Shown in pieces: positions 5,105 to 21,548 of a DNA stretch of 32,000 nt; position 1 is the stretch's first letter, and the number at the start of each line of letters is the position of its first letter. The stretch comes from Oleidesulfovibrio alaskensis DSM 16109 (GTDB taxonomy: Bacteria; Desulfobacterota; Desulfovibrionia; Desulfovibrionales; Desulfovibrionaceae). The stretch lies in NCBI RefSeq assembly GCF_000482745.1, contig NZ_AXWQ01000007.1, positions 122,865 through 154,864 on the forward strand. Reading direction: 5' to 3'. Under the pieces are notes generated by a model, which searched no databases, had not been told where the DNA came from, and saw nothing but the letters and a program-made list of their open reading frames with translations. A program made the translations under genes and the position numbers.

Positions 5105-5772
5105 CGGATTGGTGCGTGCGGATGGCGGCCGTGGGCGGCGGAGTGGGGGTCACGCTGTTGCTGCTGCTTTTCCTGCTGGCAGGAACTGCTCCCCGCGTGG
5201 TGACAGATGAGCCTGTGGTGCATGGCGCGGTCAGGCTGTCTTCGTTTACCGAAGCTCCGGTACGCGAGACCGAGACCTATGCCACCCGCGATGTGCAGCA
5301 GGTGCAGCCCCTTGAAAAGATGTCAGAAATGGATGTGTCTCTTGATTCGCCGCAGTTGGAAATGGACATGCCCTCCATGGAAATGGATTTCGCGCCCGAG
5401 CTGGCAGGCACCGTGCCGCTGAGCGGAGTCCCTTCCGTGGCTTCGGCCGGCGGGTTGTCGGCGCCGTCGGGCGGTGCCTTTACGCTGGGCGAGGTTGATG
5501 AACAGCCGCGCCCGCTTTATGCGCCGGCCCCGCTGTATCCGATGCAGGAAAAACGTCTGGGGCGTGAATGCACCGTGGTGGTGCGCATTCTGCTGGCTGA
5601 GGACGGAACGGTGAAACAGGCGACTCCCGTGTATGCGGAAGACGATACCCGGACGTTTCATGAGGCCGCCGTGGAAACGGTGCTGCGGTGGCGTTTTGTA
5701 CCCTGCCGCAAAGACGGCAGGGCCGTGCAGTGCATTGCCGAGCAGCCTTTTACCTTTTCACTGCACCAGTAA
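5101..5772 (+). CDS. tonB: TonB-family energy transducer
   Basis: C-terminal TonB_C-like domain (RPLYAPAPLYPMQEKRLGRECTVVVRILLAEDGTVKQATPV...ETVLRWRFVPCRKDGRAVQCIAEQPFTFSL) and an N-terminal TM (VGVTLLLLLFLLAG). I chose ATG 5101 (ATGA overlap with the exbD stop) over the track start at 5050, which would overlap exbD by 55 nt. Confidence 0.8.
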   Translation: MTDWCVRMAAVGGGVGVTLLLLLFLLAGTAPRVVTDEPVVHGAVRLSSFTEAPVRETETYATRDVQQVQPLEKMSEMDVSLDSPQLEMDMPSMEMDFAPELAGTVPLSGVPSVASAGGLSAPSGGAFTLGEVDEQPRPLYAPAPLYPMQEKRLGRECTVVVRILLAEDGTVKQATPVYAEDDTRTFHEAAVETVLRWRFVPCRKDGRAVQCIAEQPFTFSLHQ

Positions 5773-5789
5773 AGGGCATGGAGGTGGTT

Positions 5790-7043
5790 ATGACCGGATA
5801 TGCCATGCTTGAACGATTGTGGCACACCCCGGCGCGGCAGATGCGGTTGGCGGTGCTGTGCGTGGCTGTATGCACAATGCTGCCGGTGCTGTGCGACAGC
5901 GCGTTGGCGGGCGTCCGCTCCGTGACGGCCATGGAATACGAGATATTCACGGAAGCCAAGCGGCTTGCGGACAAAGGCCGTCACGATATGGCCGCAGAAA
6001 AGATGGCCGTGTACTTCCGCCGTTATTCGGACAGGCATCAGTACGCGTACGAGCTGTACGGGGCCGTGCTGCTGGAGATGAAACGCGAAGACCTGGCGGT
6101 TTCCGTGCTGCGTGAAGGCGCCGGAGAGTATGCCGACAGCGGGTCGCTGGCCCAGATGCTGGGCACGGCGTTGTACCGGGCCGGAAAGCCGCTTGAGGCT
6201 GCCGACGCCTTTTTGAAGGCGTATGCGCTTTCGGGAGAGGCCAAAACGTATCTGGCATATTCGGCCGCGGTGTTTCTGGCCCGCGGCGAACAGTACGGCA
6301 GGGCCGCCGCCGTACTGCGCCCTCTTACGGGCAGGGCGGAAGCGAAAGCCGACTGGCATATTCTGCTTGCCCAGTGCCTTATGCGGCAGGACAAATTGCA
6401 GGAAGCGGCGCAGGGACTGCGCGCCGCAGTGCGGGTGTACCCTGAAGATGCCAAGGTGTGGCGCATGCTGGGCCTTGTTTATTACCGGCAGGGACTGCGC
6501 GACAAGGCTGCGGCAACCTATGAGATAGCGCACAAACTTGCACCGCCCAGCAGCCGCGAATCAGCCCAGCTTGCTTCGCTGTATTGTTCGCTGGGGGCTC
6601 CCTCTCTGGGGGCCCGCGCGGTGGGTGAAGCTCCGCCGACTCCGGAAATGCTGGACAATCTGGCACATTCGCTGGCCCGCGGAGGCGATCTGCCCGCTGC
6701 GCTGGAACATGCGCAGAAGGCCTTGGAACAGGCCCCCACTGATGACCGCCGTTTCAGAAAAGGGCAGATACTGCTGCGTATGGAAAAAAAGGCCGAGGCT
6801 GCGGTTGTTTTTGGCGATCTGGCAGCAGGCGGGGGGCGTCTGGCGCGCAAGGCCCGCTGGATGCTGGCCGTGATGGCGTGGAATGACGGGGACTGGCAGC
6901 AGGCGCGGGTCGAGCTTGAAAAACTGGCTTCGGGAGGGGACCGCATGGATAAACGTGCCAGAAGGCTGCTGGGAATTCTTGATCAGGTTTCCGGCGGCGC
7001 GGAACATGAAGGCAGACAGCAGAAAGAGGGCTCCGCTTCCTGA
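5790..7043 (+). CDS. Tetratricopeptide-repeat protein (TtpD-like last gene of TonB2-type clusters)
   Basis: About 417 aa. Signal-like N-terminus (MRLAVLCVAVCTMLPVLCDSALAG) and repeated TPR-like helical pairs (e.g. AKVWRMLGLVYYRQGLRDKAAATYEIAHKLAP). I chose ATG 5790 because GGAGGTGG sits 2-9 nt upstream; the track start at 5688 would overlap tonB. Confidence 0.7.
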   Translation: MTGYAMLERLWHTPARQMRLAVLCVAVCTMLPVLCDSALAGVRSVTAMEYEIFTEAKRLADKGRHDMAAEKMAVYFRRYSDRHQYAYELYGAVLLEMKREDLAVSVLREGAGEYADSGSLAQMLGTALYRAGKPLEAADAFLKAYALSGEAKTYLAYSAAVFLARGEQYGRAAAVLRPLTGRAEAKADWHILLAQCLMRQDKLQEAAQGLRAAVRVYPEDAKVWRMLGLVYYRQGLRDKAAATYEIAHKLAPPSSRESAQLASLYCSLGAPSLGARAVGEAPPTPEMLDNLAHSLARGGDLPAALEHAQKALEQAPTDDRRFRKGQILLRMEKKAEAAVVFGDLAAGGGRLARKARWMLAVMAWNDGDWQQARVELEKLASGGDRMDKRARRLLGILDQVSGGAEHEGRQQKEGSAS

Positions 7044-10543: not shown

Positions 10544-10916
10544 GGTTGAGGATACTACAGAAAATGCGGGGAACCAGACAGTATTTTTTTAAGTCGGCTT
10601 CTGTCCGGCGCGCACATGGCACGAGGCGCGGGTGAGCATTTTTTCACAAAAAGGGCAGACTGTAGCAAATGCTACGGTGCGGGACTGCGGGTGCCGCTAG
10701 AGTCTGTCATGCTGTCAGGCGGCGGACACAGGCGGTAGTATGGTGGCGGACACCTTGCGCACATTGCCCTTGTGCGGAATATAAAATGACTGATATGCGC
10801 TGTGGTGCCGGACTGTTCCGGCGCGCGGAAGCTGCCTGAAAGCGGCGGACCGGCCGCACGGACGCGTGCGGAGAACCGGTTGATGTTGCGCAACTTTTAC
10901 TACGCGAGGAGTGGAT

Positions 10917-12368
10917 ATGAGCGGGTCTAACAACAGAAACACGCAGGACGCCGGTGCCGGTCCCAGACCGGGATTGCTCTGGGCCGTGCTGTGCTTCACG
11001 CTGCCTGTGGGCGTCATCCTGTACGGAACCGTTTTTGTGGGAGTGCGCCCGCCCGTGCTGCCGTTGCTGGCCGCCGTGGCGCTGGCCGGATTGATGTGCC
11101 TGCCTGTGGGCTACACATGGAAAGAGCTGCAGGAAGGCATGCTGGAGTCTCTGGGCAGGGTGCAGCTTGCCGTGGCCATTCTGGTCATGGTGGGCATGAC
11201 CATCAGCGCGTGGCTGGCATCGGGCACCATTCCGGCCATCATCTACTGGGGGCTTAAACTTATCGCTCCGCAGTATTTTTTTGCATCGGCTTTTGTGCTG
11301 TGCGCCGTTGCTTCTGTGGCCACAGGAACATCGTTCGGCACCATGGGCACCATCGGTGTCGCCCTGCTGGGCGTGGGCGGGGTGATGGGTTTTTCGCCCG
11401 CCATGACCGTGGGGGCCATCGTTTCCGGAGCCTATTTCGGTGACAAAATGTCTCCGGTTTCCGACTCCACCAACATTACCGCCACCATCTGCGAAACTCC
11501 GCTTTTCACGCATATCAGTTCCATGATGTGGACCACCGTGCCCGCCGCGCTGGTGGCCATGGCCGGCTTTATGCTGCTGGGGGCCACGCAGACGGCTGCC
11601 TCCGGCAGTCTGGAAAGCCTTTCCGGCATTCTGGCGGGCCTTGAAAACGGCTTCAACCTGTCGCCGGTGGTATTCATTCCTCCGGTGCTCATGGTGATAC
11701 TGGCTTACAGAAGATACCCCGTGCTGCCGGTCATGGGCGTATGTCTGCTGAGCGCGCTGCTCATCGCGCTGGCAGGCGGCGCCACGCTGGATGTGCTGGC
11801 AAAGCAGCTGACCACCGGCTACAAGGCCGCCACGGAATCGGCACAGCTTAACAAGCTGCTTTCGCGCGGGGGGCTTATGTCTGTCATGCCCACCATTCTG
11901 CTGCTGACTTCGGGTATGGCTTTCGGCGGCATTCTGGAGCGCGCCCGCGTGCTGGAAGTGCTTCTTGATGCCATGCTGCGCGGTTCCAGGTCGCCTGTGC
12001 GGCTTGTGGCGTCCACGCTGGGGTCCGCATATATCATACTGCTGGGCACCGGCAGCCAGATGCTGGCTGCCATTATTCCCGGCCGTGCCTTTCTGCATGC
12101 CTACGATGAAAACGACCTGCACCGCTCCGTGCTTTCGCGCACCTGCGAAGACGCCGGTACGCTTGGCTGCCCGCTGGTGCCGTGGAGCGTGCACGCATTT
12201 TATATAATGGGGGTGCTGGGTGTCAGCGCCTATGAATTTGCCCCGTACGCTTTGCTTAACTGGGGCGTTCCCGTGTTTTCCATTCTGTGCGCCATGACCG
12301 GCATCGGCATGCGCAGGCGCGACGGTTCGCCCGTGCGCCGTGCACCCGCACAGGTGGAAAACGCCTGA
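10917..12368 (+). CDS. nhaC: NhaC-family (Na+/H+ antiporter-type) membrane transporter
   Basis: About 483 aa and polytopic. NhaC-family motif region GAIVSGAYFGDKMSPVSDSTNITA. ATG 10917 follows GAGGAG (10906-10911); the track start at 10911 is a GTG two codons upstream. Confidence 0.85.
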   Translation: MSGSNNRNTQDAGAGPRPGLLWAVLCFTLPVGVILYGTVFVGVRPPVLPLLAAVALAGLMCLPVGYTWKELQEGMLESLGRVQLAVAILVMVGMTISAWLASGTIPAIIYWGLKLIAPQYFFASAFVLCAVASVATGTSFGTMGTIGVALLGVGGVMGFSPAMTVGAIVSGAYFGDKMSPVSDSTNITATICETPLFTHISSMMWTTVPAALVAMAGFMLLGATQTAASGSLESLSGILAGLENGFNLSPVVFIPPVLMVILAYRRYPVLPVMGVCLLSALLIALAGGATLDVLAKQLTTGYKAATESAQLNKLLSRGGLMSVMPTILLLTSGMAFGGILERARVLEVLLDAMLRGSRSPVRLVASTLGSAYIILLGTGSQMLAAIIPGRAFLHAYDENDLHRSVLSRTCEDAGTLGCPLVPWSVHAFYIMGVLGVSAYEFAPYALLNWGVPVFSILCAMTGIGMRRRDGSPVRRAPAQVENA

Positions 12369-12402: not shown

Positions 12403-13965
12403 ATGGCTTCAGAATCCATAAAGAACGTCATCTTCATCATGCTGGATACTCTGCAGTTCAACTATCTGGGCTGCTACGGCAATAAAGAGGTGAAGACGCC
12501 TAATCTGGACCGTTTTGCCGGGGAAGGCTTTCTTTTTGAAAACGCCTACAGCGAAGGGCTGCCGACCATCCCTGTGCGCCGTGCGCTGATGACCGGACGC
12601 TACACGCTGCCTTACGGCGGCTGGAAGCCGCTGGACCCCGAGGATACCACGCTGACCGATATTCTGTGGTGCCGCGAGGTGCAGACGGCTCTGGTATACG
12701 ATACGCCGCCCATGCGGCTGCCCAAATACGGCTATTCGCGCGGGTTTGACTATGTGCGGTTCTGCAACGGGCACGAACTGGATCACGAGACCTTCAGCAA
12801 GGTACCGCTTTCTGAAAAGTTCAAGCCGGAAGACTATGTTTCGCCCAACTGGCTTACGCGTGATGCGGACGGCGAACTGGACAGCTCCGGCAAATCGCTG
12901 CTGCGCGAGACGGAATGCTATCTGCGTCAGCGGCAGAAGTGGCAGTCGGACGCGGACAACTATGTGGCTGTGGTTGCCCGCGAAAGTGATGACTGGCTGC
13001 GGACCAAGCGCGATCCCGAACGTCCGTTCTTTTTGTGGGTTGATTCCTTTGACCCGCACGAACCGTGGGATCCGCCTTCGGTGTGGGAAGGCCGCCCCTG
13101 CCCGTACGATCCCGACTACACGGGCAATCCGCTGCTGCTGGCGCCGTGGTCCGAAGTGGCCGGTGTGCTGACTGAAGAAGAATGCAGGCATATCCGCGCC
13201 CTGTACGCCGAAAAGGTGACTCTGGTGGACAAGTGGATGGGCCGTCTGTTTGATTCTCTGAAAGAACAGGGGCTGTGGGACAACACCATGGTTGTGGTCA
13301 CATCGGACCACGGACAGCCCATGGGCGAAGGCGAACACGGCCACGGTATCATGCGCAAGTGCCGTCCGTGGCCCTATGAAGAGCTGGTGCATGTGCCCCT
13401 GATGGTGCATGTCCCCGGTCTGAAAGGCGGTAAGCGTATCAGCAGTTTTGTGCAGAACGTGGACATATCGGCCACCATCATGGACGCGCTCGGATACTAT
13501 AATACGGAAGCCCTGCATGATGCGGGGCACGAAAGCATAAGCACCTACGATGCGGAAGATATGCACGGCATCAGCCTGCTTCCGGTCATGCGCGGAGAAA
13601 CGCAGACCGTGCGCGATTTTGCCATTGCCGGGTACTATGGCATGTCATGGTCTATTATAACACATGATTACAGCTATATACATTGGATAACGCGCGAGAT
13701 CGACACAGACTCCATGAACAAGATATTCTACGACGGTTCCGGCAAGGGCGGTAACGCCGGCAGGCAGTCCGCCCAGCTGGAGGTCAAGGAAGAGATGTGG
13801 ACCTGTGTGCCCGGTGCCGAGGTGGCATTGCCGCAGCAGGACGAGCTGTACGACCGGAAAAACGATCCGTTCCAGCTTAACAACATCATCGCCGAACAGC
13901 CGGAAAAAGCGAAAGAGCTGCTGCAGCAGCTCAAGCTGTTCATCGGCGAGCTGAGAACAACCTGA
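12403..13965 (+). CDS. Sulfatase-fold (alkaline-phosphatase superfamily) hydrolase with Thr at the formylglycine position; no signal peptide
   Basis: About 520 aa. N-terminal metal-site strand VIFIMLDTLQ, then FENAYSEGLPTIPVRRALMTGRYT, which aligns without gaps to the sulfatase signature (C/S-x-P-x-R-xxx-x-TGR). Later family motifs are DSFDPHEPW and VVTSDHGQPMGEGEHGHG. The start is ambiguous between GTG 12394 and ATG 12403. Confidence 0.85.
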   Translation: MASESIKNVIFIMLDTLQFNYLGCYGNKEVKTPNLDRFAGEGFLFENAYSEGLPTIPVRRALMTGRYTLPYGGWKPLDPEDTTLTDILWCREVQTALVYDTPPMRLPKYGYSRGFDYVRFCNGHELDHETFSKVPLSEKFKPEDYVSPNWLTRDADGELDSSGKSLLRETECYLRQRQKWQSDADNYVAVVARESDDWLRTKRDPERPFFLWVDSFDPHEPWDPPSVWEGRPCPYDPDYTGNPLLLAPWSEVAGVLTEEECRHIRALYAEKVTLVDKWMGRLFDSLKEQGLWDNTMVVVTSDHGQPMGEGEHGHGIMRKCRPWPYEELVHVPLMVHVPGLKGGKRISSFVQNVDISATIMDALGYYNTEALHDAGHESISTYDAEDMHGISLLPVMRGETQTVRDFAIAGYYGMSWSIITHDYSYIHWITREIDTDSMNKIFYDGSGKGGNAGRQSAQLEVKEEMWTCVPGAEVALPQQDELYDRKNDPFQLNNIIAEQPEKAKELLQQLKLFIGELRTT

Positions 13966-13971
13966 CAGAAA

Positions 13972-14005
13972 CCCGCCGCGGCAGGCAGCCGCCTGCCGCG
14001 GCGGG
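13972..14005. repeat. Perfect 15-bp GC-rich inverted repeat (hairpin) without a U-tract
   Basis: cccgccgcggcaggc (13972-13986), loop agcc, gcctgccgcggcggg (13991-14005). It starts 7 nt after the sulfatase-like stop and ends 31 nt before the crp-family start. Confidence 0.6.
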
Positions 14006-14035: not shown

Positions 14036-14701
14036 ATGGAAGATTTCTGGAGAATACGCGCCACGGACACCGCATGGAAAGGTGTGCTGCATCTGGCGTC
14101 GCCGCGCAGGTACAGCAGGGGCGAAGTGATTATCCGCGCCGGAGAAATGGTGGACAGCCTGTTTTATCTCGAATCCGGCGAAGTGCGCATGATCCGTACC
14201 AGTATGGAAGGATCGGAAAAGATCCTGATGTACATCGAGGAAGGCACTCTGTTCGGCGAAACGCCGTTTTTTACCGGTCAGCCCATCCTGAGCACGTTTG
14301 TGTGTTCGCGGCCTGCGGTTATCTGGCGCTTTTCGCGGCACAGCGTCTATGCCGATCTGCTGCCCAACCATCCGGAAATCGTCAGTTCGCTGCTGCACAC
14401 GTTTGCGGCAAAGGTGAGCACGCTCAGCAACCAGTCCGCCTCGCTGGGACTGCAGAATGTGGCGGAGCGGCTGTGTACGTTTTTGTATGTCACCAGCGGC
14501 GAGAGCATATCCGGTGCCCATGGCGCCGAACTGAAACTTTCCATGAAAATGCGCGATATCGCCAACCTGCTGGGCGTGCATCGCACCACGCTGTACAAAG
14601 CCATCCGCGATCTTGAAAAAGAGGGTGTGCTGGAAAATTTTACCAGAGACAGTGTGCGCATTGCCGATGTGACGCGGTTTCTGGAAATGGTGCATAAATA
14701 A
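14036..14701 (+). CDS. Crp/Fnr-family transcriptional regulator
   Basis: 221 aa. N-terminal cNMP-binding-like beta-barrel (GEVIIRAGEMVDSLFYLESGEVRMI...GTLFGETPFF) and a C-terminal HTH (MKMRDIANLLGVHRTTLYKAIRDLEKEGVL). There is no FNR-type N-terminal Cys cluster. A GGAGA RBS sits 5 nt upstream. Confidence 0.85.
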   Translation: MEDFWRIRATDTAWKGVLHLASPRRYSRGEVIIRAGEMVDSLFYLESGEVRMIRTSMEGSEKILMYIEEGTLFGETPFFTGQPILSTFVCSRPAVIWRFSRHSVYADLLPNHPEIVSSLLHTFAAKVSTLSNQSASLGLQNVAERLCTFLYVTSGESISGAHGAELKLSMKMRDIANLLGVHRTTLYKAIRDLEKEGVLENFTRDSVRIADVTRFLEMVHK

Positions 14702-14790: not shown

Positions 14791-15102
14791 ATGAGTTTGC
14801 AGACTGTGACGCCGGGCGATCTTGATGCCCGCATAGAACAGACCGCGCAGGGTATTGTGCTGTTTCACAAGGAACTGTGCCCGCATTGCAAGAATATGGA
14901 AAAAGTGCTGGCCAAATTCGGCGCCAAAAATCCCGATGTGGAACTGCTGGCCGTGGACAGCGAAGCAGACCCCGCGGTGATGGAAGCCTACGGCGTGGAG
15001 CGTGTGCCGTCGCTGGTCATCGTGCGCGGGGGGCGGGCCGTGTATACCCGCACCGGTCTTATGAATCCTAAGGAACTGACAACACTGTATCATTCAGTAT
15101 AG
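14791..15102 (+). CDS. Thioredoxin-fold protein with a CPHC active site
   Basis: 103 aa. The C-P-H-C motif (14878-14889) lacks the canonical preceding Trp, and a cis-Pro context is present (VERVPSLVIV). ATG 14791 follows AAGGAG (14779-14784); the track start at 14746 adds 15 unsupported residues. Confidence 0.85.
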   Translation: MSLQTVTPGDLDARIEQTAQGIVLFHKELCPHCKNMEKVLAKFGAKNPDVELLAVDSEADPAVMEAYGVERVPSLVIVRGGRAVYTRTGLMNPKELTTLYHSV

Positions 15103-15133: not shown

Positions 15134-16051
15134 ATGGAAACCAGACAGGTTGATGTGCTTATACTGGGCGGCGGGGTGGCCGGCATGACCGCCGCCGTTT
15201 ACGCCGCCCGCGCGGGGCTGCGTGTGACGCTGCTGGAGGAGAATGCCTGCGGCGGGCTGGTAAACTGGACGCGTGTTGTCGAAAATATGCCGTCCTACAT
15301 CAGCATACCCGGCATGGAACTGGCCGACCGCATGGCGGAACAGGTGGCCGCGCTGGGGGTGGATGTGGAAGAGGCCGCCTGCATTGAAGAAATATCACTC
15401 GCGGCCGGAGACAAAACTGTCGTGGCCGACGATGTGCGGTATGAGGCCCGTGCCGTCATTGCCGCCACGGGGCGCAGGCCGGTGCTGCTGGACTGTGCCG
15501 GCGACTGCTGTCAGGTGCATTACTGTGCCATATGCGACGGCAGCGCGTACAAGGGCCGGCACGTGCTGGTGGTGGGCGGCGGCAACAGCGGATTTGACGA
15601 GGCTCTGGCCCTGCTGGACACGGGTGTGGCACGGGTGACTCTGATCGAGGCGCAGGACAGGTTTTTTGCCGCGGCCGCGGCGCAGCGTGCGCTGGCCGCC
15701 CGTGAGGGTGCAGTCATGTATACCTCCACGCGGGTGACGCAGCTGCACGGGACGGATGCTCTTGAGTCCGTCACGCTGACCCGTGCAGACGGTTCGGAAC
15801 AGCAGCTGCCGTGCGACGGAATATTTGTGTTCATGGGGCAGGAGCCAAGCACGCAGCTTTTCCGCGGGCAGCTGGAACTGGACGCACAAGGCTACGTAGT
15901 CACTGACGGCCTGATGGCCACATCGGTGCCCGGCGTGTTCGCGGCGGGTGACGTGCGGCCCAAGCGTTACCGGCAGATAACCACGGCCCTGTCTGACGGC
16001 ACCGTGGCCGCGCTGGAGGCGGAAAGGTATATCCGCCGTACGGCGGGCTGA
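15134..16051 (+). CDS. trxB: Low-molecular-weight thioredoxin-reductase-like flavoprotein (TrxB family) lacking the NADPH 2'-phosphate motif
   Basis: 305 aa. FAD GxGxxG (ILGGGVAGMTAA), redox-active CAIC (15524-15535; compare CATC in E. coli TrxB), a second dinucleotide fold (VVGGGNSGFDEA) and the C-terminal GVFAAGDV...YRQ...A..DG motif. Where the HRRDxxR motif is expected, the sequence reads IEAQDRF (15644-15664). Confidence 0.88.
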   Translation: METRQVDVLILGGGVAGMTAAVYAARAGLRVTLLEENACGGLVNWTRVVENMPSYISIPGMELADRMAEQVAALGVDVEEAACIEEISLAAGDKTVVADDVRYEARAVIAATGRRPVLLDCAGDCCQVHYCAICDGSAYKGRHVLVVGGGNSGFDEALALLDTGVARVTLIEAQDRFFAAAAAQRALAAREGAVMYTSTRVTQLHGTDALESVTLTRADGSEQQLPCDGIFVFMGQEPSTQLFRGQLELDAQGYVVTDGLMATSVPGVFAAGDVRPKRYRQITTALSDGTVAALEAERYIRRTAG

Positions 16052-16085: not shown

Positions 16086-16502
16086 ATGATGCGCGGCGGC
16101 TCCGGATTTTCGCGTCCTTTCCGGCTGACGCTGTATGACCCAGACCCGCGCCGGTGCCGGGCCACGGCGGATATGCTGCGTCGCGAGCTGGGCCGGCATG
16201 TGTTTCGGGACTTGCGCGGCGGCGTTGTTTCGGCCAATGTCACCGAAGTTGCCTGTTATCTGGCCATAGCCCGGCAGGGATACGCCGACAGTGTTCCCGT
16301 GCTGGAGCTTGACGGCGTTCCGCTGAGCCGGTGTCTGGTGCTGGAACCGCCTCATGTGCGCAGCTTTGCCGCATGGCTGGAGCAGCAGGCGCAAAAGGAA
16401 GACAGGGGCGGTTCTCAGCCGCCCTATCTGCAGCATTGTGGCGGCAGGTTCCCCGACAGGAGTCAGGAGAGCGAACTTATTTTTCCGGAGGATAAACCGT
16501 GA
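16086..16502 (+). CDS. Hypothetical small protein, possibly a degenerate thioredoxin/glutaredoxin-like fold
   Basis: 138 aa, with genome-typical G/C-ending codons. Its last codons carry the GGAGGA RBS (16487-16492) for the next gene, and its TGA overlaps the GTG start of that gene (GTGA at 16499-16502). The pattern RLTLYDPDPRRCRATADMLRREL ... SVPVLELDGVPL loosely resembles a Grx beta-alpha-beta / cis-Pro layout with only one Cys. I recognise no family confidently. Confidence 0.5.
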   Translation: MMRGGSGFSRPFRLTLYDPDPRRCRATADMLRRELGRHVFRDLRGGVVSANVTEVACYLAIARQGYADSVPVLELDGVPLSRCLVLEPPHVRSFAAWLEQQAQKEDRGGSQPPYLQHCGGRFPDRSQESELIFPEDKP

Positions 16503-18997
16503 ATCCCATTGAGAAACTGTGTAGGGACGAGGCCGGCAACTCTGCCGTGCTTCAGGGGAACATCGCTTTTGCCGTGGGCTGCGTGCGCGCCGGCATCCAT
16601 GCCGCGGACGGTTATCCCGGCACACCCAGTTCCGAAGTGATAGATAAAGGCCTTTCGCAGGTGCAGGACATGATCGCCGTGGGATGGTCCGTCAGCGAGG
16701 CCGTGGCCGCCGGTGTGGGGCACGGACATTCTCTGGCCGGACGCGACTGCGTCGTGACCATGAAAATACCCGGCCTGTATCAGGCGGGTGACATATTCAC
16801 CAGCGTGGCCACCTATACCGCTGACCGCGGCGGGCTGATATTTTATGTGGCCGCCGACTATACACCCAGTTCCACGCAGCACGTCATCGACCCCCGCTAC
16901 CTGTACAAAAGCTGCTTTGTTCCCGTTTTCGAGCCGCGAACCCATCAGGAACTGCACGAGTCGGCGCTGGTGGCGGTGGAAATAGCCCGCCGGTTCAATA
17001 CGCCCGTGGTTATCCAGCCCAGCGGCGTGCTGTGCCACAGCGAAGGCCTCGTGCGCATGATGCCCGTCACTTCCCGCGAGCCTGCTCCGGTGTCTCCGCT
17101 GCGGCTGCAGAACTCTCTGCCCGTGTTTGCCCGCGCCAACTACGACAAAGTTATGGCCGAACGCATGCCCGGTCTGCTGGAAATGGTGGAGCAGAGCCCC
17201 CTCAATGTGCATATCAAAGGTTCGGGCAAGCGCGGTGTCATCACCCACGGCATCAACTCCATGTACATGGATGAGTACCGGGCGCTGTTCGACAACGACA
17301 TCGATATCCTCTCGCTGGGATTCACCAACCCGCTGCCCATGGAAAAAATCCGCAATTTCTGCGAATCCATCGAAGGCGAAGTGTTTGTCATCGAGGACGG
17401 CTACCGCTTTATTCAGGAAGCATGCGGTGCCGCAGGTCTGAAGGTGACCGGCAAGGAAGAATACAGCAACGTGACGGAATGGACGCCTGCCAGCATTGCG
17501 GCATTTCTGGGCCAGCAGGCCGCGGCGGCTCCCCGTCCGCAGGCTGCGCCTGTGCCGCGTCCGCCCATGATATGCGCCGGATGCCCGTACCGCCTGTTCG
17601 GCGAAGTGGTTGCCCGTATGAAGCGCAAAGGCGAGATTGAAGCCGTTTTCGGTGACATAGGCTGTAATACGCTGCTGTATTTTCTGGGTGCGCTTGATAC
17701 AGGCCTTGCCATGGGCGCCAGCGAAAGCAAGCGTACCGGCTATGTTCTTTCCAAGCCCGAATCGGTGAGCAAATGCATCAGCCTGCTGGGCGACGGCACA
17801 GAATGCCACAGTGGCATGGATGCCACCAGAAATGCCGTGTTCCGCAACGTGGCCGGTGTAAAGGTGGTGCTGGACAACGAATGGACAGCCATGACCGGCG
17901 GTCAGCCCGGTCCTACTTCTCCCGTCAACCTTGCGGGCGACCCCACACGGTTTGATCTTGTGGCATCGCTCAAGGCGCAGGGGGCGGAAGTGGCGCTCAT
18001 CGACGCATACGACATGAAAAGCGTGCGCAAAGGGCTCAGGGCAGCGTTGAAAGCCGCGGAAGACGGCACCTTTACCACGCTTGTCATCCGCGGCACCTGT
18101 ATCCGCAAGGTACCCGCAGCCGATTACGGCCAGAAGCTTATCGTGGATACCGAAAAATGCGTACAGTGCGGCGCGTGCAATATCTGCTCGGGCATTCAGC
18201 CTGATGAAAACGGTGTGCCTTTCTGGAACAACCTGTGCACCGGCTGCGTTTCCAAGACTCCGGCCTGTCTGCAGATGTGCCCCAAGGGTGCCATAGCGGT
18301 GGATACCGAATGCAGCACCGGCGCCTGTGCCGAAAAGCCCGTACTGCCCGAAGCTCCTGAACATATCGATGTGCCTGTGCTTACCGATGCCCAGCGTCCC
18401 GCTCGTCTCAGCCTCGGGATCCGCGGTGTGGGCGGGCAGGGCAACCTGTTCTTCGGCAAGGCGCTGGCGCAGATGGCGTTCATCGCCGGTTACGGCGAAA
18501 AGAATATCCTGAAGGGCGAAACCCACGGTATGGCCCAGATGGGCGGTCCCGTCATTTCCACATTTGCCTGCGGCGACGTGCACAGCACCCAGTTTGTGCC
18601 GGGTACGGCTGATGCGCTTATCGTCATGGAGCAAAGCGAAGTGCTGCGCCCCGGTTTTCTTGATATGCTGCGCCCCGAAGGCACTGTTCTGCTGGCGGAA
18701 ACCGTCATTGTGCCGCAGGGCTTCGACCCGGAAAAATACCCCACCAGACAGGCCATTGACGAGCTGCTTTCGGGCTGCAACGTGGTGCGTATCGACGTGC
18801 TGAAGATGGCCCTTGCACTGGGAGACGAACGCGGCCGCTGCGCCAACGTGGTCATGCTGGGTGCGCTCAGCAGGCTGTCGCCGTTTGACGCCTTCCCCGT
18901 TGAGGTATGGCTGCAGGCGCTTAAAAAAGTCAGCCCCCGTCCCGCGGTATGGACACTGAACCACGCCGCCTTTCTGCAGGGGCGCACACTGGTGTAG
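16499..18997 (+). CDS. Fused IorA-IorB-type 2-oxoacid (indolepyruvate/arylpyruvate):ferredoxin oxidoreductase
   Basis: 832 aa. IorA-like N-terminus (LQGNIAFAVGCVRAGIHAADGYPGTPSSEVID), a TPP-binding region (GDIGCNTL ... LLGDGTECHSGMDA...VLDNEWTAMTGGQP), two ferredoxin-type Cys motifs (CVQCGACNICSG; CTGC...CLQMCPKGAI), then an IorB/gamma-type domain (LGIRGVGGQGNLFFGKALAQ). GTG start with a strong RBS. Confidence 0.85.
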   Translation: MNPIEKLCRDEAGNSAVLQGNIAFAVGCVRAGIHAADGYPGTPSSEVIDKGLSQVQDMIAVGWSVSEAVAAGVGHGHSLAGRDCVVTMKIPGLYQAGDIFTSVATYTADRGGLIFYVAADYTPSSTQHVIDPRYLYKSCFVPVFEPRTHQELHESALVAVEIARRFNTPVVIQPSGVLCHSEGLVRMMPVTSREPAPVSPLRLQNSLPVFARANYDKVMAERMPGLLEMVEQSPLNVHIKGSGKRGVITHGINSMYMDEYRALFDNDIDILSLGFTNPLPMEKIRNFCESIEGEVFVIEDGYRFIQEACGAAGLKVTGKEEYSNVTEWTPASIAAFLGQQAAAAPRPQAAPVPRPPMICAGCPYRLFGEVVARMKRKGEIEAVFGDIGCNTLLYFLGALDTGLAMGASESKRTGYVLSKPESVSKCISLLGDGTECHSGMDATRNAVFRNVAGVKVVLDNEWTAMTGGQPGPTSPVNLAGDPTRFDLVASLKAQGAEVALIDAYDMKSVRKGLRAALKAAEDGTFTTLVIRGTCIRKVPAADYGQKLIVDTEKCVQCGACNICSGIQPDENGVPFWNNLCTGCVSKTPACLQMCPKGAIAVDTECSTGACAEKPVLPEAPEHIDVPVLTDAQRPARLSLGIRGVGGQGNLFFGKALAQMAFIAGYGEKNILKGETHGMAQMGGPVISTFACGDVHSTQFVPGTADALIVMEQSEVLRPGFLDMLRPEGTVLLAETVIVPQGFDPEKYPTRQAIDELLSGCNVVRIDVLKMALALGDERGRCANVVMLGALSRLSPFDAFPVEVWLQALKKVSPRPAVWTLNHAAFLQGRTLV

Positions 18998-19013
18998 GCC
19001 CATGTGATACCAA

Positions 19014-19045
19014 GGCCCGGAGTGTGACGCTTCGGGCCTTTTTTT
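19014..19045 (+). terminator. Rho-independent terminator/attenuator between the oxidoreductase and the acyl-CoA synthetase
   Basis: Hairpin ggcccgga (19014-19021) / ttcgggcc (19031-19038) with a 9-nt loop, followed by a 7-T run (19039-19045). Confidence 0.6.
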
Positions 19046-19085
19046 ACCCCGCAACACACTGTAAAAAATTTGAAAGAGCCTCCGC

Positions 19086-21548
19086 ATGAGCATGACCATT
19101 CCCATTGATTATTCGCGCATAACGGATCTGTTCCGCACCGCGCGGGAAGAAGGCCGTGATTTTCTGTATGAGTACGAGGTCTACACCCTGCTTGCCAGTT
19201 CCGGAGCGGAAACCCCGCCGCGGGCGAATCTGATTCCCCGCGGGGCCAGACCCTCGGACGAGGAACTGATGGCCATTCCCGGAGACAGGGCCGTGCTCAA
19301 GATTGTCTCGCCCGCCATTGTGCATAAGACCGAAGTGGGCGGAGTGCGCATTGTGGAAAAAACGCCGGACCGCATCCGCTCCGCCATGCGGCGCATGCTG
19401 TATGAAGTGCCGGAGAATTTTGCCGCCTGCATAGAACGCGACCCCGACCATGCCCCGCTGCCGTACAGAGGCCTGCGCGGAGAAACATTACAGGCTGCCA
19501 TCAGCAGAGACCTGAAGGGGGTACTGCAGGTACAGTTCATGCCGCCGGATTCCGGTGCGTTCGGCAATGAACTTATTGTGGGCCTGCGGCGCACGCGCGA
19601 GTTCGGAACTGTGATAAGCGCCGGTCTGGGCGGTACGGATACCGAGCTGTATGCCGAGCGCTTCCGCAAAGGGCAGGCCGTTGTGGCCGCGTCCACCCAG
19701 CTGACGGACGAGGATGCTTTTTTCGAGCTGTTCCGCAAAACCATTTCGTATCGCAAGCTGGCCGGTCTGACACGGGGACAGCAGCGCATTGTCACCGATG
19801 AACAGCTGGTGGAATGCTTCGGGTCGTTCATCCGCATGGCACGTTATTTTTCCGACGCCAACCCGCAAGCGCCTTTTGTCATTGATGAGCTGGAAATAAA
19901 TCCCTTTGCATTCAGTGATTACCTGATGGTGCCGCTGGACGGCCTGTGCCGTTTCAGTGAACCGGCACAGCCGGCCAACGTCCGGCCCGTGGCAAAAATA
20001 GACAGACTGCTGCACCCGCGGTCGATCGGTATTGCCGGTGTTTCAGCTTCCCGCCGCAATTTCGGGCGTATTATTCTGGAAAACGTGCTCAACGAAGGTT
20101 TCGGGGCTGAAAACGTCACGGTGTTCCGTCCCGGTGCTGCTCCGGGCGATACGCAGGAAGGCGTACGCGTGCTGCCGGAACTGGCCGCGCTGGGGCTTGA
20201 TGCGGCAGGCGGCAAGGTGGCGCCGCAGAATGCGCTTGATCTGTTTGTAGTGGCTGTGGGGGCACAGCAGGTGCCCGATATGGTGGATGAGATCATCAGA
20301 CTGGGGGCTGCCCACAGTGTTATGCTCATACCCGGCGGCATGGGTGAAACAGAAAACAGCCGTGAACGTGCGGCGCGCGTCATAGCGCGCATCAACGATG
20401 AACACGGCAGGGGCGACGGCGGGCCGGTGTTTCTGGGCGCCAACTGCATGGGGGTGGTTTCCCGTCCGGGCCGGTATGATACATGGTTCATTCCGGAGCA
20501 GAAACTGCCCAAGGACAGAAGCGGCACCTGCCACAGGGCCGCGCTTGTCAGCCAGAGCGGCGCGTTCATGCTGCACCGCAGCAGCCAGTGCCCCGAACTG
20601 AAACCCGCCTATATGATATCCATGGGCAACCAGACAGACCTGACGCTGGGAGACATGGTCACATATTTCAAGGACAGCGATGCGGTGGATGTCATCGCTG
20701 TATACGCCGAAGGATTCAATGATCTTGACGGGCTGGCATTCTGCCGCGCTGTGCGCGAAGCTGTCATAGCCGGAAAGGAAGTTGTTTTTTACAAGGCCGG
20801 GCGCACGCCGGAAGGCCGCAGCGCCACCAGCGGACACACTGCTTCGCTGGCCGGCGATTATATGGTCTGCGAAAGCTGCGTACGTCAGGCCGGAGCCATT
20901 GTTGCCCGCACCTTTACCGAGTTTCAGGAGCTTTTTCTGCTGGCGGAGAAGCTGTACGGCAAAAAAGTGCGCGGCACCCGGCTGGCGGCTGTGAGCGGAG
21001 CGGGCTTTGAGGCCGTGGGCATGGCGGACTCCATCCAGTCCGACGATTACCGCATGGAACTGGCGTCGTTTTCCGCTTCAACAGTGGCAGCCATAAGCGA
21101 ACTGCTGCGTGGCAAAAAACTTGATGCGCTGGTTACGGTAACCAACCCGCTGGACATCAATCCCGCCGCCGATGACGAAGTGCACGCCGAAGTGGCCCGC
21201 CTGCTGGCGGCAGACCCCGCTGTGGACGCCGTTGTCATCGGACTTGACCCGCTGTCACCCGCGGTGCACACGCTGGACAGTCCCGATGTGCCGGATTTTT
21301 CCATTCATGAAGAAGGTGCCGTGACACGCCGCATCATACAGGTGGCTGCCTGCAGTGATAAGCCCGTGGTGGGCGTGGTGGACGGCGGCAGGTTGTTCGA
21401 CCCCATGCGGGCGCAGGTGCTGGCCGGCGGAGTGCCGGTGTTTTCCGTATGCGACAGGGCTGTCTCTTCACTGGCTGTGTACATAGAAGGCAGGCTGCGG
21501 GCGGACATACTGCGGGCCTGTGTCCATGACAACAGCTGCAACGGCTGA
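19086..21548 (+). CDS. ADP-forming acyl-CoA synthetase (NDP-forming acetate/aryl-acetate--CoA ligase family), fused beta-alpha order
   Basis: 820 aa. N-terminal ATP-grasp part (YEVYTLLASSG...LKIVSPAIVHKTEVGGVRIV), then a CoA-binding Rossmann part (RSIGIAGVSASRRNFGRIILENV), a phospho-His loop (SGHTASLAG) and a CoA-ligase flavodoxin-like part (RLAAVSGAGFEAVGMAD). Confidence 0.85.
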   Translation: MSMTIPIDYSRITDLFRTAREEGRDFLYEYEVYTLLASSGAETPPRANLIPRGARPSDEELMAIPGDRAVLKIVSPAIVHKTEVGGVRIVEKTPDRIRSAMRRMLYEVPENFAACIERDPDHAPLPYRGLRGETLQAAISRDLKGVLQVQFMPPDSGAFGNELIVGLRRTREFGTVISAGLGGTDTELYAERFRKGQAVVAASTQLTDEDAFFELFRKTISYRKLAGLTRGQQRIVTDEQLVECFGSFIRMARYFSDANPQAPFVIDELEINPFAFSDYLMVPLDGLCRFSEPAQPANVRPVAKIDRLLHPRSIGIAGVSASRRNFGRIILENVLNEGFGAENVTVFRPGAAPGDTQEGVRVLPELAALGLDAAGGKVAPQNALDLFVVAVGAQQVPDMVDEIIRLGAAHSVMLIPGGMGETENSRERAARVIARINDEHGRGDGGPVFLGANCMGVVSRPGRYDTWFIPEQKLPKDRSGTCHRAALVSQSGAFMLHRSSQCPELKPAYMISMGNQTDLTLGDMVTYFKDSDAVDVIAVYAEGFNDLDGLAFCRAVREAVIAGKEVVFYKAGRTPEGRSATSGHTASLAGDYMVCESCVRQAGAIVARTFTEFQELFLLAEKLYGKKVRGTRLAAVSGAGFEAVGMADSIQSDDYRMELASFSASTVAAISELLRGKKLDALVTVTNPLDINPAADDEVHAEVARLLAADPAVDAVVIGLDPLSPAVHTLDSPDVPDFSIHEEGAVTRRIIQVAACSDKPVVGVVDGGRLFDPMRAQVLAGGVPVFSVCDRAVSSLAVYIEGRLRADILRACVHDNSCNG

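What the first reader, a model, noticed from the sequence alone, without database searches (positions are those of the whole stretch)
12565..12579. Sulfatase-fold enzyme with Thr replacing the formylglycine-precursor Cys/Ser (T-I-P-V-R)
**Seen in sequence:**
- FENAYSEGLP-T-IPVR-RALMTGRYT aligns residue for residue with the type-I sulfatase signature (..C/S-x-P-x-R-xxxLTGR..). The key position is Thr (codon ACC, 12565-12567).
- The rest of the fold's metal- and substrate-binding motifs (MLDT.., DPHEPW, SDHGQPMGEGEHGHG) are present.
- There is no signal peptide.

**Established knowledge:**
- FGE and anaerobic sulfatase-maturating enzymes act on Cys or Ser; I know of no evidence that Thr is converted to formylglycine.
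- Several other alkaline-phosphatase-superfamily enzymes use an unmodified Thr nucleophile. Examples are nucleotide pyrophosphatase/phosphodiesterases, LtaS-type and phosphoethanolamine transferases.

**Inference:** this is probably not a classical sulfatase. It is more likely a Thr-nucleophile phospho-, phosphono- or sulfo-ester hydrolase or transferase of unknown substrate.
Basis: partly seen in the sequence, partly recalled or inferred. Interest (0 to 1): 0.65.

Follow-up and report, generated by a model that had tools for sequence, protein, structure and literature searches.

The report
Threonine-type sulfatase-like enzyme beside desulfothioredoxin
A cytoplasmic enzyme of a sulfate-reducing bacterium has the sulfatase fold and signature but a conserved threonine where sulfatases need formylglycine; it belongs to a large uncharacterised clade that usually sits next to an unusual thioredoxin system, so it probably works without the usual maturation step.

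Summary
Codon ACC at 12565-12567 encodes Thr55 of a 520-aa protein (12403-13965, +). Sequence, profile and model alignments all place Thr55 at the Cys/Ser (formylglycine) position of the S1 sulfatase signature.

It is not an error. Thr occurs in 119/119 close homologues and in 102 of 112 more distant cluster representatives. All four Thr codons are used at this site.

The remaining active site is kept as Asp15, Thr/Ser16, Pro57, Arg59, His219, Asp302-His303 and Lys319. This is the Asp/nucleophile/Asp-His metal site of phosphonate monoester hydrolase-like sulfatases and of Thr-nucleophile relatives. No signal peptide or maturase gene was found.

New findings:
- The gene lies in the Crp/Fnr, desulfothioredoxin (CPHC) and thioredoxin reductase locus of Desulfovibrio.
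- The enzyme-Trx-TrxR trio recurs across distant lineages and twice in Bilophila, usually with an anion importer.
- Gut Desulfovibrionaceae carry tandem paralogue arrays.

Best reading: a formylglycine-independent, Thr-nucleophile esterase for imported small anionic esters. Sulfate esters are favoured, and the enzyme is functionally tied to the thioredoxin pair. Substrate and chemistry remain untested.

I rate it a new variant of a known kind, with moderately high interest.

The parts
10911..12368 (+). NhaC-type (PF03553) anion/cation carrier. It ends 34 bp upstream of the enzyme gene and is the likely importer or exchanger for the substrate. The start codon is uncertain.
   Evidence: Pfam E 6e-45. 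The same gene precedes the orthologue in D. vulgaris, Maridesulfovibrio and Bilophila loci.
12403..13965 (+). Thr-type sulfatase-like enzyme: 520 aa, cytoplasmic, full sulfatase fold.
12445..12450 (+). Asp15-Thr16. This is the first metal ligand, followed by a hydroxyl residue in place of the second Asp of classical D-D.
   Evidence: Aligned to the D-D of 7lha and the D-Q of 7oz8/4upi. It is D-[T/S] in 100 of 102 Thr-type representatives.
12565..12579 (+). T55-I-P-V-R59, with Thr at the formylglycine position. This is the finding itself.
13051..13074 (+). D217-P-H219-E-P-W-D-P, the clade signature. His219 aligns with the substrate-binding His of the P-H-x-P motif.
   Evidence: Invariant in alignment A1. 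Aligned to the PH of sulfatases. Also used as a search pattern.
13303..13314 (+). S-D302-H303-G, the metal ligands Asp-His. This is the PMH/EfAS-type His rather than Asn.
   Evidence: EfAS D311/H312 are described in PMC12421950.
13336..13359 (+). H312-G-H314-G-I-M-R-K319, an invariant loop ending in the conserved active-site Lys. The model has low confidence here.
13972..14005 (+). Perfect 15-bp inverted repeat (GC-rich hairpin) between the enzyme gene and crp.
   Evidence: Read directly from the sequence. Its function was not tested.
14036..14701 (+). Crp/Fnr-family regulator.
   Evidence: Pfam cNMP_binding plus HTH_Crp_2. In the tblastn screen it aligns next to the enzyme gene in about 18 distinct loci (L001/L002 and L003/L004 each counted once), but at only 23-42% identity, so these are Crp/Fnr-family genes, not shown to be orthologues. 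12 loci fall in one ORF cluster.
14791..15102 (+). Desulfothioredoxin (Trx3/Dtrx) orthologue, with active site C-P-H-C at 14878-14889.
   Evidence: PDB 2L6C/2L6D match at E 4e-29; the next best thioredoxin scores 1e-8. CPHC is present in 14 of 16 neighbouring Trx genes.
15134..16051 (+). Thioredoxin reductase (TR3 type), with C-A-I-C at 15524-15535.
   Evidence: Pfam. Adjacent in at least 26 loci. CAIC occurs in 14 of 23.
16086..16502 (+). Possible small gene after TrxR. By eye it resembles conserved ~100-aa ORFs in other loci. It has no Pfam match, and its boundaries and reality are uncertain.

Best explanation
The gene encodes a cytoplasmic metallo-esterase of the arylsulfatase/phosphonate-monoester-hydrolase branch of the alkaline-phosphatase superfamily. 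It does not depend on formylglycine.

**Proposed mechanism (inferred, not shown)**
- A divalent metal is held by Asp15, Thr55, Asp302 and His303.
- The metal activates the Thr55 hydroxyl, which attacks the sulfur or phosphorus of a small anionic ester.
- Arg59, His219 and Lys319 bind the oxyanion and assist the leaving group.
- A covalent Thr-O-XO3 enzyme forms and must then be cleared by water or another nucleophile. The hemiacetal elimination used by formylglycine is not available.

**Substrate and setting (inferred)**
- The substrate is imported by the adjacent carrier: NhaC here, and DASS, TRAP, TTT or MFS carriers elsewhere.
- I favour sulfate esters (aryl or small alkyl) over phosphate or phosphonate esters.
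- The enzyme works together with the neighbouring desulfothioredoxin/thioredoxin-reductase pair and a Crp/Fnr regulator. In Desulfovibrio this is the 'trx3' locus; my recollection is that the same locus was called the 'mre' operon in strain G20, but that paper could not be read here.

**Status of the steps**
- Shown: fold, register, conservation, synteny.
- Inferred: Thr as nucleophile, identity of the metal, substrate class, and what the thioredoxin does.
For: **Register and fold**
-.

**Thr under purifying selection**
- 119/119 close homologues, 102/112 distant representatives, and four synonymous codons in use.

**Catalytic set conserved with the Thr**
- D15 100/102, T/S16 100/102, R59 100/102, H219 101/102, D302 101/102, H303 100/102. 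This argues for an active enzyme.
- The Asp/nucleophile/Asp-His ligand set equals that of EfAS and PMH (PMC12421950). From memory of established structures, it also equals that of the Thr enzymes NPP, LtaS and EptA.
- Oxidising Thr would give a ketone, not formylglycine (PMC5066984).

**No maturase nearby**
- No anSME- or FGE-like ORF was found in the window or in about 87 related loci.

**Cytoplasmic**
-.

**Context**
- Trx(CPHC) plus TrxR lie within 7 kb in at least 26 loci, mostly within 0.5 kb.
- These loci span Desulfovibrionaceae, Desulfomonile, Desulfopila, Desulfarculia, Dethiosulfatarculus and an Acidobacteriota MAG.
- Bilophila ATCC 49260 has two separate clusters, each with its own Trx/TrxR.
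- Anion importers are next to the gene in most loci.

**Lean towards sulfate esters**
- A DASS 'sodium:sulfate symporter' family carrier is present in 8 loci.
- Arylsulfotransferase genes sit beside the enzyme in L015 and L027.
- Cys-type members of the same clade share an operon with a classical S1 sulfatase in L090.
- D. vulgaris trx3-operon mutants lag on sulfate and thiosulfate but not on sulfite (bioRxiv 10.1101/2024.09.27.615472).
Against: - No biochemical data exist for any member of the Thr clade, at least in PDB or the searchable literature.
- To my knowledge (from memory, not checked here), every characterised Ser/Thr-nucleophile enzyme of the superfamily natively transfers phosphoryl groups and no native sulfatase uses Ser or Thr. 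A sulfo-Thr intermediate would be very hard to hydrolyse.
- The sulfate-leaning context is thin: two ASST loci and one mixed operon.
- The enrichment in sulfate reducers partly reflects where the query came from.
- In this window the enzyme gene and trx-trxR are separated by crp, a hairpin and a terminator-like site, so co-transcription here is doubtful.
- The role of thioredoxin is unexplained. The clade-specific Cys233 is absent in two Trx-linked members.
- The invariant loop 312-324 is modelled with low confidence.
Confidence: 0.45

Rival explanations
1. The enzyme uses the same Thr-nucleophile chemistry, but its native substrates are phosphate monoesters, phosphodiesters or phosphonate monoesters. 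It would then resemble NPP, PhnA or PMH in function. The sulfur-flavoured context would be incidental.
For: - From established knowledge, all known Ser/Thr nucleophiles in the superfamily act on phosphorus.
- The metal set Asp/Thr/Asp-His is that of NPP, LtaS and EptA.
- The motif T-x-P-N-R in many clade members resembles the NPP motif T-F-P-N-H, which I recall from memory.
- The PF01663 and LtaS/EptA models give local matches around the D-H-G motif.
- PMH-type structures are among the best fold matches.
Against: - I saw no pho or phn genes and no phosphate transporters among the neighbours that were annotated. Only a subset of neighbour ORF clusters was annotated.
- Importing phosphate esters into the cytoplasm to hydrolyse them is unusual.
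- Linkage to DASS, ASST and Trx, and the expansion in sulfite-respiring gut bacteria, are not explained.
Confidence: 0.25
2. The enzyme, desulfothioredoxin and the reductase form an NAD(P)H-dependent reductive desulfation system. Thr55 takes the sulfuryl group from a sulfate ester. The low-pKa thiolate of desulfothioredoxin then clears the sulfo-enzyme as a thiosulfonate. The second Cys releases sulfite, and the reductase recycles the thioredoxin. The net reaction is sulfate ester to alcohol plus sulfite, with no ATP used.
For: - The enzyme-Trx-TrxR trio is tight and recurs across distant lineages.
- Each of two Bilophila clusters carries its own Trx/TrxR. This suggests stoichiometric use rather than housekeeping.
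- From memory, Bilophila respires sulfite but not sulfate.
- Thr cannot clear a sulfo-enzyme by the formylglycine route, so an external nucleophile is an attractive solution.
- Desulfothioredoxin has no known physiological substrate and lacks normal reductase activity.
- trx3 mutants lag on sulfate but not on sulfite.
- PAPS reductase is a precedent for a thioredoxin-resolved sulfuryl intermediate (from memory).
Against: - There is no direct evidence.
- My own estimate, from remembered values (methyl sulfate hydrolysis about -37 kJ/mol; sulfate/sulfite -516 mV; Dtrx -181 mV), makes the thioredoxin step uphill under standard conditions. It would be feasible only if sulfite is kept very low.
- Most paralogues have no adjacent Trx.
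- An interactome study of Trx3 does not mention a sulfatase.
Confidence: 0.12
3. Thr55 is modified after translation by an unlinked radical-SAM or other maturase. The product could be the beta-keto residue, whose hydrate would mimic formylglycine. The enzyme would then be a cryptic 'keto-type' sulfatase.
For: - The whole maturase recognition context is retained: x-P-x-R-xxx-TGR.
- Cys-type members are nested among Thr-type members in a rough tree. That would be easy to explain if the two are functionally equivalent.
- Maturases are often unlinked to their substrates.
Against: - No maturase-like ORF was found in about 87 loci.
- Thr conversion has never been reported (PMC5066984).
- Pro and Arg also have structural and catalytic roles in sulfatases, so their retention has another explanation.
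- The His thought to drive hydrate elimination has no detectable counterpart.
Confidence: 0.05
4. The protein is a non-catalytic sulfatase-like protein, such as a binding protein, sensor or scaffold, that lost its nucleophile.
For: Loss of the canonical nucleophile is a common route to pseudoenzymes.
Against: - Near-invariance of all metal and oxyanion ligands, and of Thr itself, over hundreds of divergent clusters.
- Operons with importers and sigma-54 activators look catabolic.
Confidence: 0.04
5. The Thr codon is a sequencing or assembly error in a classical Ser/Cys sulfatase.
For: ACC is one substitution away from TCC or AGC.
Against: 119/119 homologues, and 90 genes from independent assemblies, have Thr using all four codons.
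Confidence: 0.01

Closest known systems
Phosphonate monoester hydrolases and PMH-like arylsulfatases (RlPMH 2VQR, BcPMH 2W8S, ArPMH 4UPH, SpAS1/2 4UPI/4UPL, EfAS 9KOQ)
   Same: - Same two-domain fold (TM about 0.6).
- Cytoplasmic, mononuclear site with Asp, nucleophile and Asp-His.
- D-x rather than D-D after strand 1.
- x-P-x-R-xxx-TG nucleophile helix, P-H motif and conserved Lys.
   Different: - Those enzymes use formylglycine made from Cys; this one has an invariant Thr.
- Identity is only 18-21%.
- The K-x-H segment is not detectable.
- It carries the clade-specific FDPHEPWD and HGHG(I/L)MRK motifs.
- Linkage to a thioredoxin system is not known for them.
S1 formylglycine-dependent sulfatases (SulfAtlas family S1, e.g. 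PAS 1HDH, BuS1_11 7LHA)
   Same: - PF00884 fold.
- The signature context is aligned residue for residue.
- These are the best sequence and structure matches.
   Different: - The defining Cys/Ser is Thr.
- The second Asp is Thr.
- Asn is replaced by His.
- There is no signal peptide and no maturase nearby.
Thr-nucleophile alkaline-phosphatase-superfamily enzymes (NPP, phosphonoacetate hydrolase PhnA, LtaS, EptA/MCR-1)
   Same: - Thr at the N-terminus of the equivalent helix.
- Asp/Glu + Thr + Asp-His metal site.
- From memory, NPP has T-F-P-N-H-xxx-V-T-G, a motif of the same shape.
   Different: - It is not a sequence member of those families. There are only local hits around D-H-G and none in the top 50 fold matches.
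- It has no membrane domain.
- Whether a second metal site exists is unknown.
Desulfothioredoxin (Trx3, DVU0378; PDB 2L6C) / TR3 locus of Desulfovibrio vulgaris. From memory, this is the same locus as the 'mre' operon of D. alaskensis G20.
   Same: - The window carries the orthologous Trx (CPHC), TrxR and Crp/Fnr genes.
- Gene order is the same as in D. vulgaris: nhaC, sulfatase-like gene, crp, trx, trxR, then a POR-like gene and an acyl-CoA synthetase. D. vulgaris has two further genes (a small ORF and a Glu/Leu/Phe/Val-type dehydrogenase) between trxR and the POR-like gene.
   Different: The published work I could read discusses Trx3, its reductase and the regulator, but never the sulfatase-like gene. 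The G20 paper could not be read.

Membership tests
S1 formylglycine-dependent sulfatase | Alkaline-phosphatase-superfamily sulfatase fold (PF00884) over the whole catalytic domain | tested here: met
   PF00884 E 1.9e-46 against profile 1-301. Foldseek top 50 are all S1 sulfatases or PMHs.
S1 formylglycine-dependent sulfatase | Cys or Ser at the first position of (C/S)-x-(P/A)-x-R, the precursor of formylglycine | tested here: not met
   Thr55 is at that position. Thr occurs in 119/119 homologues.
S1 formylglycine-dependent sulfatase | Pro/Ala and Arg of the signature, plus the downstream T-G | tested here: met
   P57, R59 and T64-G65 are invariant or nearly invariant (T64 at 90% or more) in A1.
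S1 formylglycine-dependent sulfatase | Metal ligands D-D ... D-(N/H/Q) | tested here: inconclusive
   D15, D302 and H303 are present, but the second Asp is Thr16. D-Q occurs in solved PMH-like enzymes, so this variant is not disqualifying.
S1 formylglycine-dependent sulfatase | Lys-x-His pair (PAS K113/H115), where the His drives elimination from the formylglycine hydrate | tested here: inconclusive
   One pairwise alignment puts K-W-H on R105-L-P107. Profile alignments do not cover residues ~99-181 at all.
S1 formylglycine-dependent sulfatase | A formylglycine-generating maturase (FGE or anSME) in the organism | not testable with these tools
   None in the 32-kb window or in about 87 related loci. 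The genome is not available and maturases are often unlinked.
Phosphonate monoester hydrolase / PMH-like arylsulfatase | Asp / formylglycine / Asp-His mononuclear site in a cytoplasmic enzyme | tested here: not met
   Asp, Asp-His and cytoplasmic location are met. The nucleophile is Thr, not a formylglycine precursor.
Thr-nucleophile AP-superfamily enzymes (NPP, PhnA, LtaS, EptA) | Thr at the nucleophile position with Asp/Glu + Asp-His metal ligands | tested here: met
   Met by alignment and by the model's secondary structure. Catalytic use of the Thr is not testable here.
Thr-nucleophile AP-superfamily enzymes (NPP, PhnA, LtaS, EptA) | Sequence membership in PF01663 or in the LtaS/EptA/YejM models | tested here: not met
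   PF01663 matches only residues 268-305. The NCBIfam LtaS, EptA and YejM hits are local and far below their cut-offs. None appear among the top 50 fold matches.
Thr-nucleophile AP-superfamily enzymes (NPP, PhnA, LtaS, EptA) | Second metal site (NPP/AP type) | not testable with these tools
The extra invariant residues D214, D217, H312, H314 and H427 could form such a site, but this was not examined.
Desulfothioredoxin/TR3 (trx3) locus | CPHC thioredoxin orthologous to DVU0378, with an adjacent TrxR and Crp/Fnr regulator | tested here: met
   2L6C match at E 4e-29. Pfam matches. Synteny with D. vulgaris.

The most novel reading that the evidence does not exclude
The Thr-type enzyme and its dedicated desulfothioredoxin/reductase pair form a previously unknown, ATP-independent reductive desulfation pathway. 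It would convert imported sulfate esters directly to sulfite, via a sulfo-Thr enzyme that is resolved by the thioredoxin thiolate.

This would give sulfite-respiring bacteria such as Bilophila, and sulfate reducers, an electron acceptor from organic sulfates. It would also identify the long-missing physiological partner of desulfothioredoxin.
Probability: 0.12. Interest if true: 0.9.

Novelty: new variant of a known kind. Interest (0 to 1): 0.62.

Why it matters
**Sulfatase biochemistry**
- Formylglycine is regarded as the hallmark of the arylsulfatase/PMH branch, and its maturation is the bottleneck for expressing these enzymes.
- A large, ancient clade keeps the whole signature but uses Thr. 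Cys-type members appear nested in it in a rough tree.
- That clade is a natural experiment in nucleophile switching. It may also be a source of maturase-independent sulfate or phosphonate esterases.

**Annotation**
- These proteins are annotated as 'sulfatase' or 'arylsulfatase A-like enzyme' in NCBI, JGI and UniRef.
- This could inflate sulfatase counts in Desulfobacterota, Poribacteria, Planctomycetes and archaeal MAGs.

**Thioredoxin biology**
- The conserved pairing with desulfothioredoxin and its reductase gives a concrete, testable candidate partner.
- The function of that thioredoxin was 'not determined' in earlier work, according to the 2024 preprint read.

**Gut microbiology**
- Tandem expansions in gut Desulfovibrionaceae suggest an unrecognised route by which H2S-producing bacteria use host or dietary esters.

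Tried and rejected
- **Sequencing error:** rejected by the orthologue and codon survey.
- **Alternative Cys/Ser nucleophile motif elsewhere in the protein:** none found.
- **Membership in the manganese-dependent arylsulfatase (EfAS) family:**
  - The NCBIfam hit scores 80 bits against a cut-off of 850.
  - EfAS uses Cys61.
- **Conserved cysteines as the thioredoxin target:**
  - Cys24 lies in the L-G-C-Y-G motif, which I remember as common in ordinary sulfatases.
  - Cys233 and Cys468 are conserved in paralogues with or without adjacent Trx.
  - Cys233 is Tyr or Asn in two Trx-linked members.
  - The association is not significant (Fisher p 0.17).
- **Co-localised maturase:** a regex scan for radical-SAM and FGE motifs found only glycyl-radical activases and MoaA.
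- **Crp/Fnr operator search around the locus:** no palindrome within one mismatch of the FNR, CRP or HcpR consensus.
- **Literature:**
  - Ten searches found nothing on a T-x-P-x-R sulfatase-like clade, nor on this gene in D. vulgaris or G20.
  - The last search was wasted on an ambiguous term.
  - Three relevant papers were not held: the G20 mre operon paper and two Trx3/Dtrx papers, whose DOIs I recalled from memory and may have got wrong.
- **Neighbour-joining tree:** rough, with no support values. It is used only as a hint.
Full report
**1.

Bases 12565-12579 read ACC ATC CCT GTG CGC, which is T-I-P-V-R. They lie in an ORF whose likely start is ATG 12403 and whose stop ends at 13965, giving 520 aa. 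A database protein of the same length is 100% identical.

Several independent lines fix the register:
- Pfam Sulfatase (PF00884) matches from end to end, E 1.9e-46.
- Pairwise HMMER alignments to solved S1 sulfatases put Thr55 on the Ser of S-T-P-S-R (7lha, 7snj) and of S-G-P-S-R (7p24).
- A profile built from 27 family members puts Thr55 on the first residue of S-T-P-A-R in 7oz8. It also puts it on the residue written A in A-G-P-S-R of SpAS1 (4upi), which I take to be the recorded formylglycine.
- In an AlphaFold2 model (mean pLDDT 83.8, pTM 0.89) Thr55 opens helix 55-64 after strand 43-49.

The first strand begins at residue 8, so there is no room for a signal peptide. No other (C/S)-x-P-x-R motif exists in the protein.

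**2. It is a conserved feature, not an error**

- All 119 homologues at 55-100% identity that include the N-terminus have T-[IV]-P-x-R-R.
- In 90 homologous genes from independent assemblies the site uses ACC 42, ACG 18, ACA 16 and ACT 14 times. This is selection on the amino acid.
- An exhaustive HMMER search of 1.84 billion cluster representatives found 850 with E <= 1e-30.
- Among the 112 full-length proteins in the best 150 (33-51% identity), 102 have Thr, 7 Cys and 1 Ser at the aligned column.
- The clade reaches Poribacteria, Planctomycetia, Chloroflexota, Acidobacteriota, Bathyarchaeia and Thermoprotei.
- In a rough neighbour-joining tree the Cys-type members (F-P-C-M-P-A-R-R-D) form a small group nested among Thr-type members. 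A classical S1 sulfatase sits on a long branch outside. The tree has no support values and is only a hint.

**3. Active-site anatomy**

The following residues are conserved together with Thr55:
- Asp15
- a hydroxyl residue at position 16 (Thr 56, Ser 44 of 102)
- Pro57 and Arg59
- Asp217 and His219, within F-D-P-H-E-P-W-D
- Asp302-His303, within S-D-H-G
- His312, His314 and Lys319

Three departures from classical S1 sulfatases stand out:
- D-D has become D-T. D-Q occurs in solved PMH-like enzymes such as SpAS1, 7oz8 and EfAS, so this is a known variant.
- The fourth ligand is His, as in PMHs and EfAS, not Asn.
- The K-x-H segment has no detectable counterpart. One pairwise alignment puts K-W-H on R105-L-P107, and profile alignments skip residues ~99-181. 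The SulfAtlas paper describes this His (His115) as catalysing the elimination that frees the enzyme from sulfate (PMC5066984). Its apparent absence fits an enzyme that no longer uses that chemistry.

The ligand set Asp/Thr/Asp-His is, from my knowledge of the structures, the one found in the Thr-nucleophile enzymes NPP, LtaS and EptA.

**4. Where it belongs**

- The 50 best Foldseek matches in PDB are all formylglycine sulfatases or phosphonate monoester hydrolases. They have TM 0.54-0.63 (normalised to the query) and 18-21% identity.
- NPP, LtaS and EptA are absent from that list. Their sequence models match only locally around D-H-G.
- No solved structure has the Thr variant.

By descent, then, the protein belongs to the arylsulfatase/PMH branch. 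By nucleophile it resembles the phosphoryl-transfer branch.

**5. Genomic context**

The window is from a Desulfovibrionaceae genome. The best named match to the enzyme is an Oleidesulfovibrio protein at 91% identity.

The local gene order is:
1. NhaC-type carrier (10911-12368)
2. The enzyme
3. A perfect 15-bp hairpin
4. Crp/Fnr regulator (14036-14701), followed by a terminator-like site
5. Thioredoxin (14791-15102, active site CPHC)
6. Thioredoxin reductase (15134-16051, CAIC)

The thioredoxin is the orthologue of D. vulgaris desulfothioredoxin. It matches PDB 2L6C at E 4e-29, while the next best thioredoxin scores 1e-8. D. vulgaris has the same gene order, except for two extra genes between trxR and the POR-like gene.

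Across 87 related loci:
- A Trx and a TrxR gene lie within 7 kb of the enzyme gene in at least 26 loci, mostly within 0.5 kb.
- For homologues of at least 55% identity, my hand tally of the table gives about 22 of about 28 loci.
- The lineages include D. alaskensis, Desulfomonile tiedjei, Desulfopila, Desulforhopalus, Desulfarculia, Dethiosulfatarculus and an Acidobacteriota MAG.
- Fourteen of 16 neighbouring thioredoxins carry CPHC.
- Bilophila wadsworthia ATCC 49260 has two separate clusters on one scaffold. Each has its own importer, Thr-type enzyme, Trx and TrxR (L016, L035).

By my rough estimate, not a computed figure, a genome has only a few TrxR genes. The chance of one falling in a 16-kb window is then about one percent. 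The association is therefore very strong.

Other neighbours point to a catabolic role:
- The importer varies: NhaC, a DASS 'sodium:sulfate symporter' family carrier (8 loci), TRAP, TTT or MFS.
- Gut Desulfovibrionaceae and Mailhella MAGs carry tandem arrays of up to four or five paralogues. These come with sigma-54 activators and TRAP or other carriers, but no Trx (L041, L043, L044, L073).
- No other catabolic enzyme is consistently linked.

Occasional neighbours give further hints:
- Arylsulfotransferase genes occur in L015 and L027.
- A glycyl-radical enzyme with its activase and an aldehyde dehydrogenase occurs in L029.
- Cys-type clade members sit in sugar or TTT operons. In one case (L090) they share the operon with a classical D-D/C-S-P-A-R/D-N-G sulfatase.
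- No anSME- or FGE-like gene occurs in the window or in any locus.

**6. Literature**

- The SulfAtlas paper notes that many PF00884 seed sequences carry Thr (the T-x-N-x-E, LtaS-like type). It also notes that Thr oxidation would give a ketone, not formylglycine, and that such proteins cannot be called sulfatases (PMC5066984). It does not describe a T-x-P-x-R clade.
- A 2024 preprint on D. vulgaris thioredoxins reports several things about Trx3:
  - It has an atypical active site and lacks normal activity.
  - It has few interaction partners.
  - Mutants of its operon lag on sulfate and thiosulfate but not on sulfite.
  - The preprint never mentions the sulfatase-like gene.
- A review cites the G20 'mre' operon (Crp, thioredoxin, reductase, oxidoreductase) as needed for U(VI) and Cr(VI) reduction. 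The primary paper was not available.
- Nothing in the searchable library describes this clade.

**7. How it most likely works**

*Shown:* fold, register, conservation, cytoplasmic location, synteny.

*Inferred:* Thr55, activated by a metal bound to Asp15, Asp302 and His303, attacks a small anionic ester that has been imported. Arg59, His219 and Lys319 bind the oxyanion. A covalent Thr ester forms and is then cleared.

I favour sulfate esters because of the descent of the clade, the DASS and arylsulfotransferase neighbours, the mixed operon with a classical sulfatase, and the trx3 phenotype. This evidence is thin. To my knowledge (from memory, not checked here), every characterised Ser/Thr nucleophile in the superfamily acts on phosphorus, so a phosphate or phosphonate esterase is the main rival.

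The thioredoxin link is the least understood part. One attractive idea is that the very acidic thiolate of desulfothioredoxin clears a sulfo-Thr enzyme and releases sulfite, by analogy with PAPS reductase.
- My back-of-envelope estimate from remembered values makes that step uphill under standard conditions. It would be feasible if sulfite is kept low.
- It would explain why Bilophila keeps a dedicated Trx/TrxR with each copy. From memory, Bilophila respires sulfite but not sulfate.
- I give this idea about 12%.

The clade-specific cysteines do not track the Trx linkage.

**8. Verdict**

The protein fails the defining test for a formylglycine sulfatase but descends from that branch. It represents a large, uncharacterised Thr-type clade with a conserved and unexplained partnership with desulfothioredoxin. 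I rate it a new variant of a known kind, with moderately high interest.

Noticed in passing
window 22247-24406 (+), in-frame TGA at 22646-22648: A molybdopterin oxidoreductase reads C-A-R-L-[TGA]-H-A-P-T-V across an in-frame TGA. This looks like a selenocysteine-containing formate dehydrogenase alpha subunit that ORF listing splits in two. It is followed by a 4Fe-4S protein (24256-24996) and a [FeFe]-hydrogenase (24993-26369).
   Followed up: partly
window 16086-16502 (+); L038 10950-11252, L027 9591-9932, L035 4701-4970, L059 4266-4535: A small ORF follows the thioredoxin reductase gene. By eye it resembles conserved ~100-aa ORFs next to the Thr-type enzyme or TrxR in other lineages (V-P-V-L-E-[IL]-D-G motif, possibly a thioredoxin-like fold without CxxC). 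It has no Pfam match.
   Followed up: partly
L041, L043, L044, L073, L049, L040 (gut Desulfovibrionaceae / Mailhella MAGs): These loci carry tandem arrays of two to five Thr-type paralogues (45-50% identical to the query). They come with sigma-54 activators and TRAP or other carriers, and no adjacent thioredoxin. One MAG contributes about ten separate loci.
   Followed up: partly
L088 7548-7823 and L089 2754-3029: In Cys-type relatives of the clade, a 91-aa 2Fe-2S ferredoxin (PF00111) gene overlaps the end of the sulfatase-like gene by 4 bp. The context is GH38/GH4/ROK sugar genes.
   Followed up: no
L029 9661-14649; L005 1-3037: A glycyl-radical enzyme and its activase lie beside the Thr-type enzyme in two loci. 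In L029 an aldehyde-dehydrogenase-family protein follows. The enzyme's product might feed a radical dehydratase or lyase.
   Followed up: partly
window 16499-21548 (+): A fused 2-oxoacid:ferredoxin oxidoreductase-like protein (832 aa) and an ADP-forming acyl-CoA synthetase (820 aa) lie downstream of trxR. Both also lie downstream of trxR in D. vulgaris, after two intervening genes.
   Followed up: no
window 1856-7043 (+): A DUF3450, ExbB, ExbB, ExbD, TonB and TPR gene cluster follows an ABC ATPase. It is a complete TonB-type energising system in a Desulfovibrionaceae genome.
   Followed up: no
window 13336-13374 (residues 312-324): The loop H-G-H-G-I-M-R-K-C-R-P-W-P is almost entirely invariant across the family: 10 of its 13 residues are invariant in A1, M317 is conserved at 90% or more, I316 varies with Leu, and Cys320 is only about 79% conserved. 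Yet it is the least confident part of the AlphaFold model (pLDDT below 50). It may order only on metal, substrate or partner binding.
   Followed up: no
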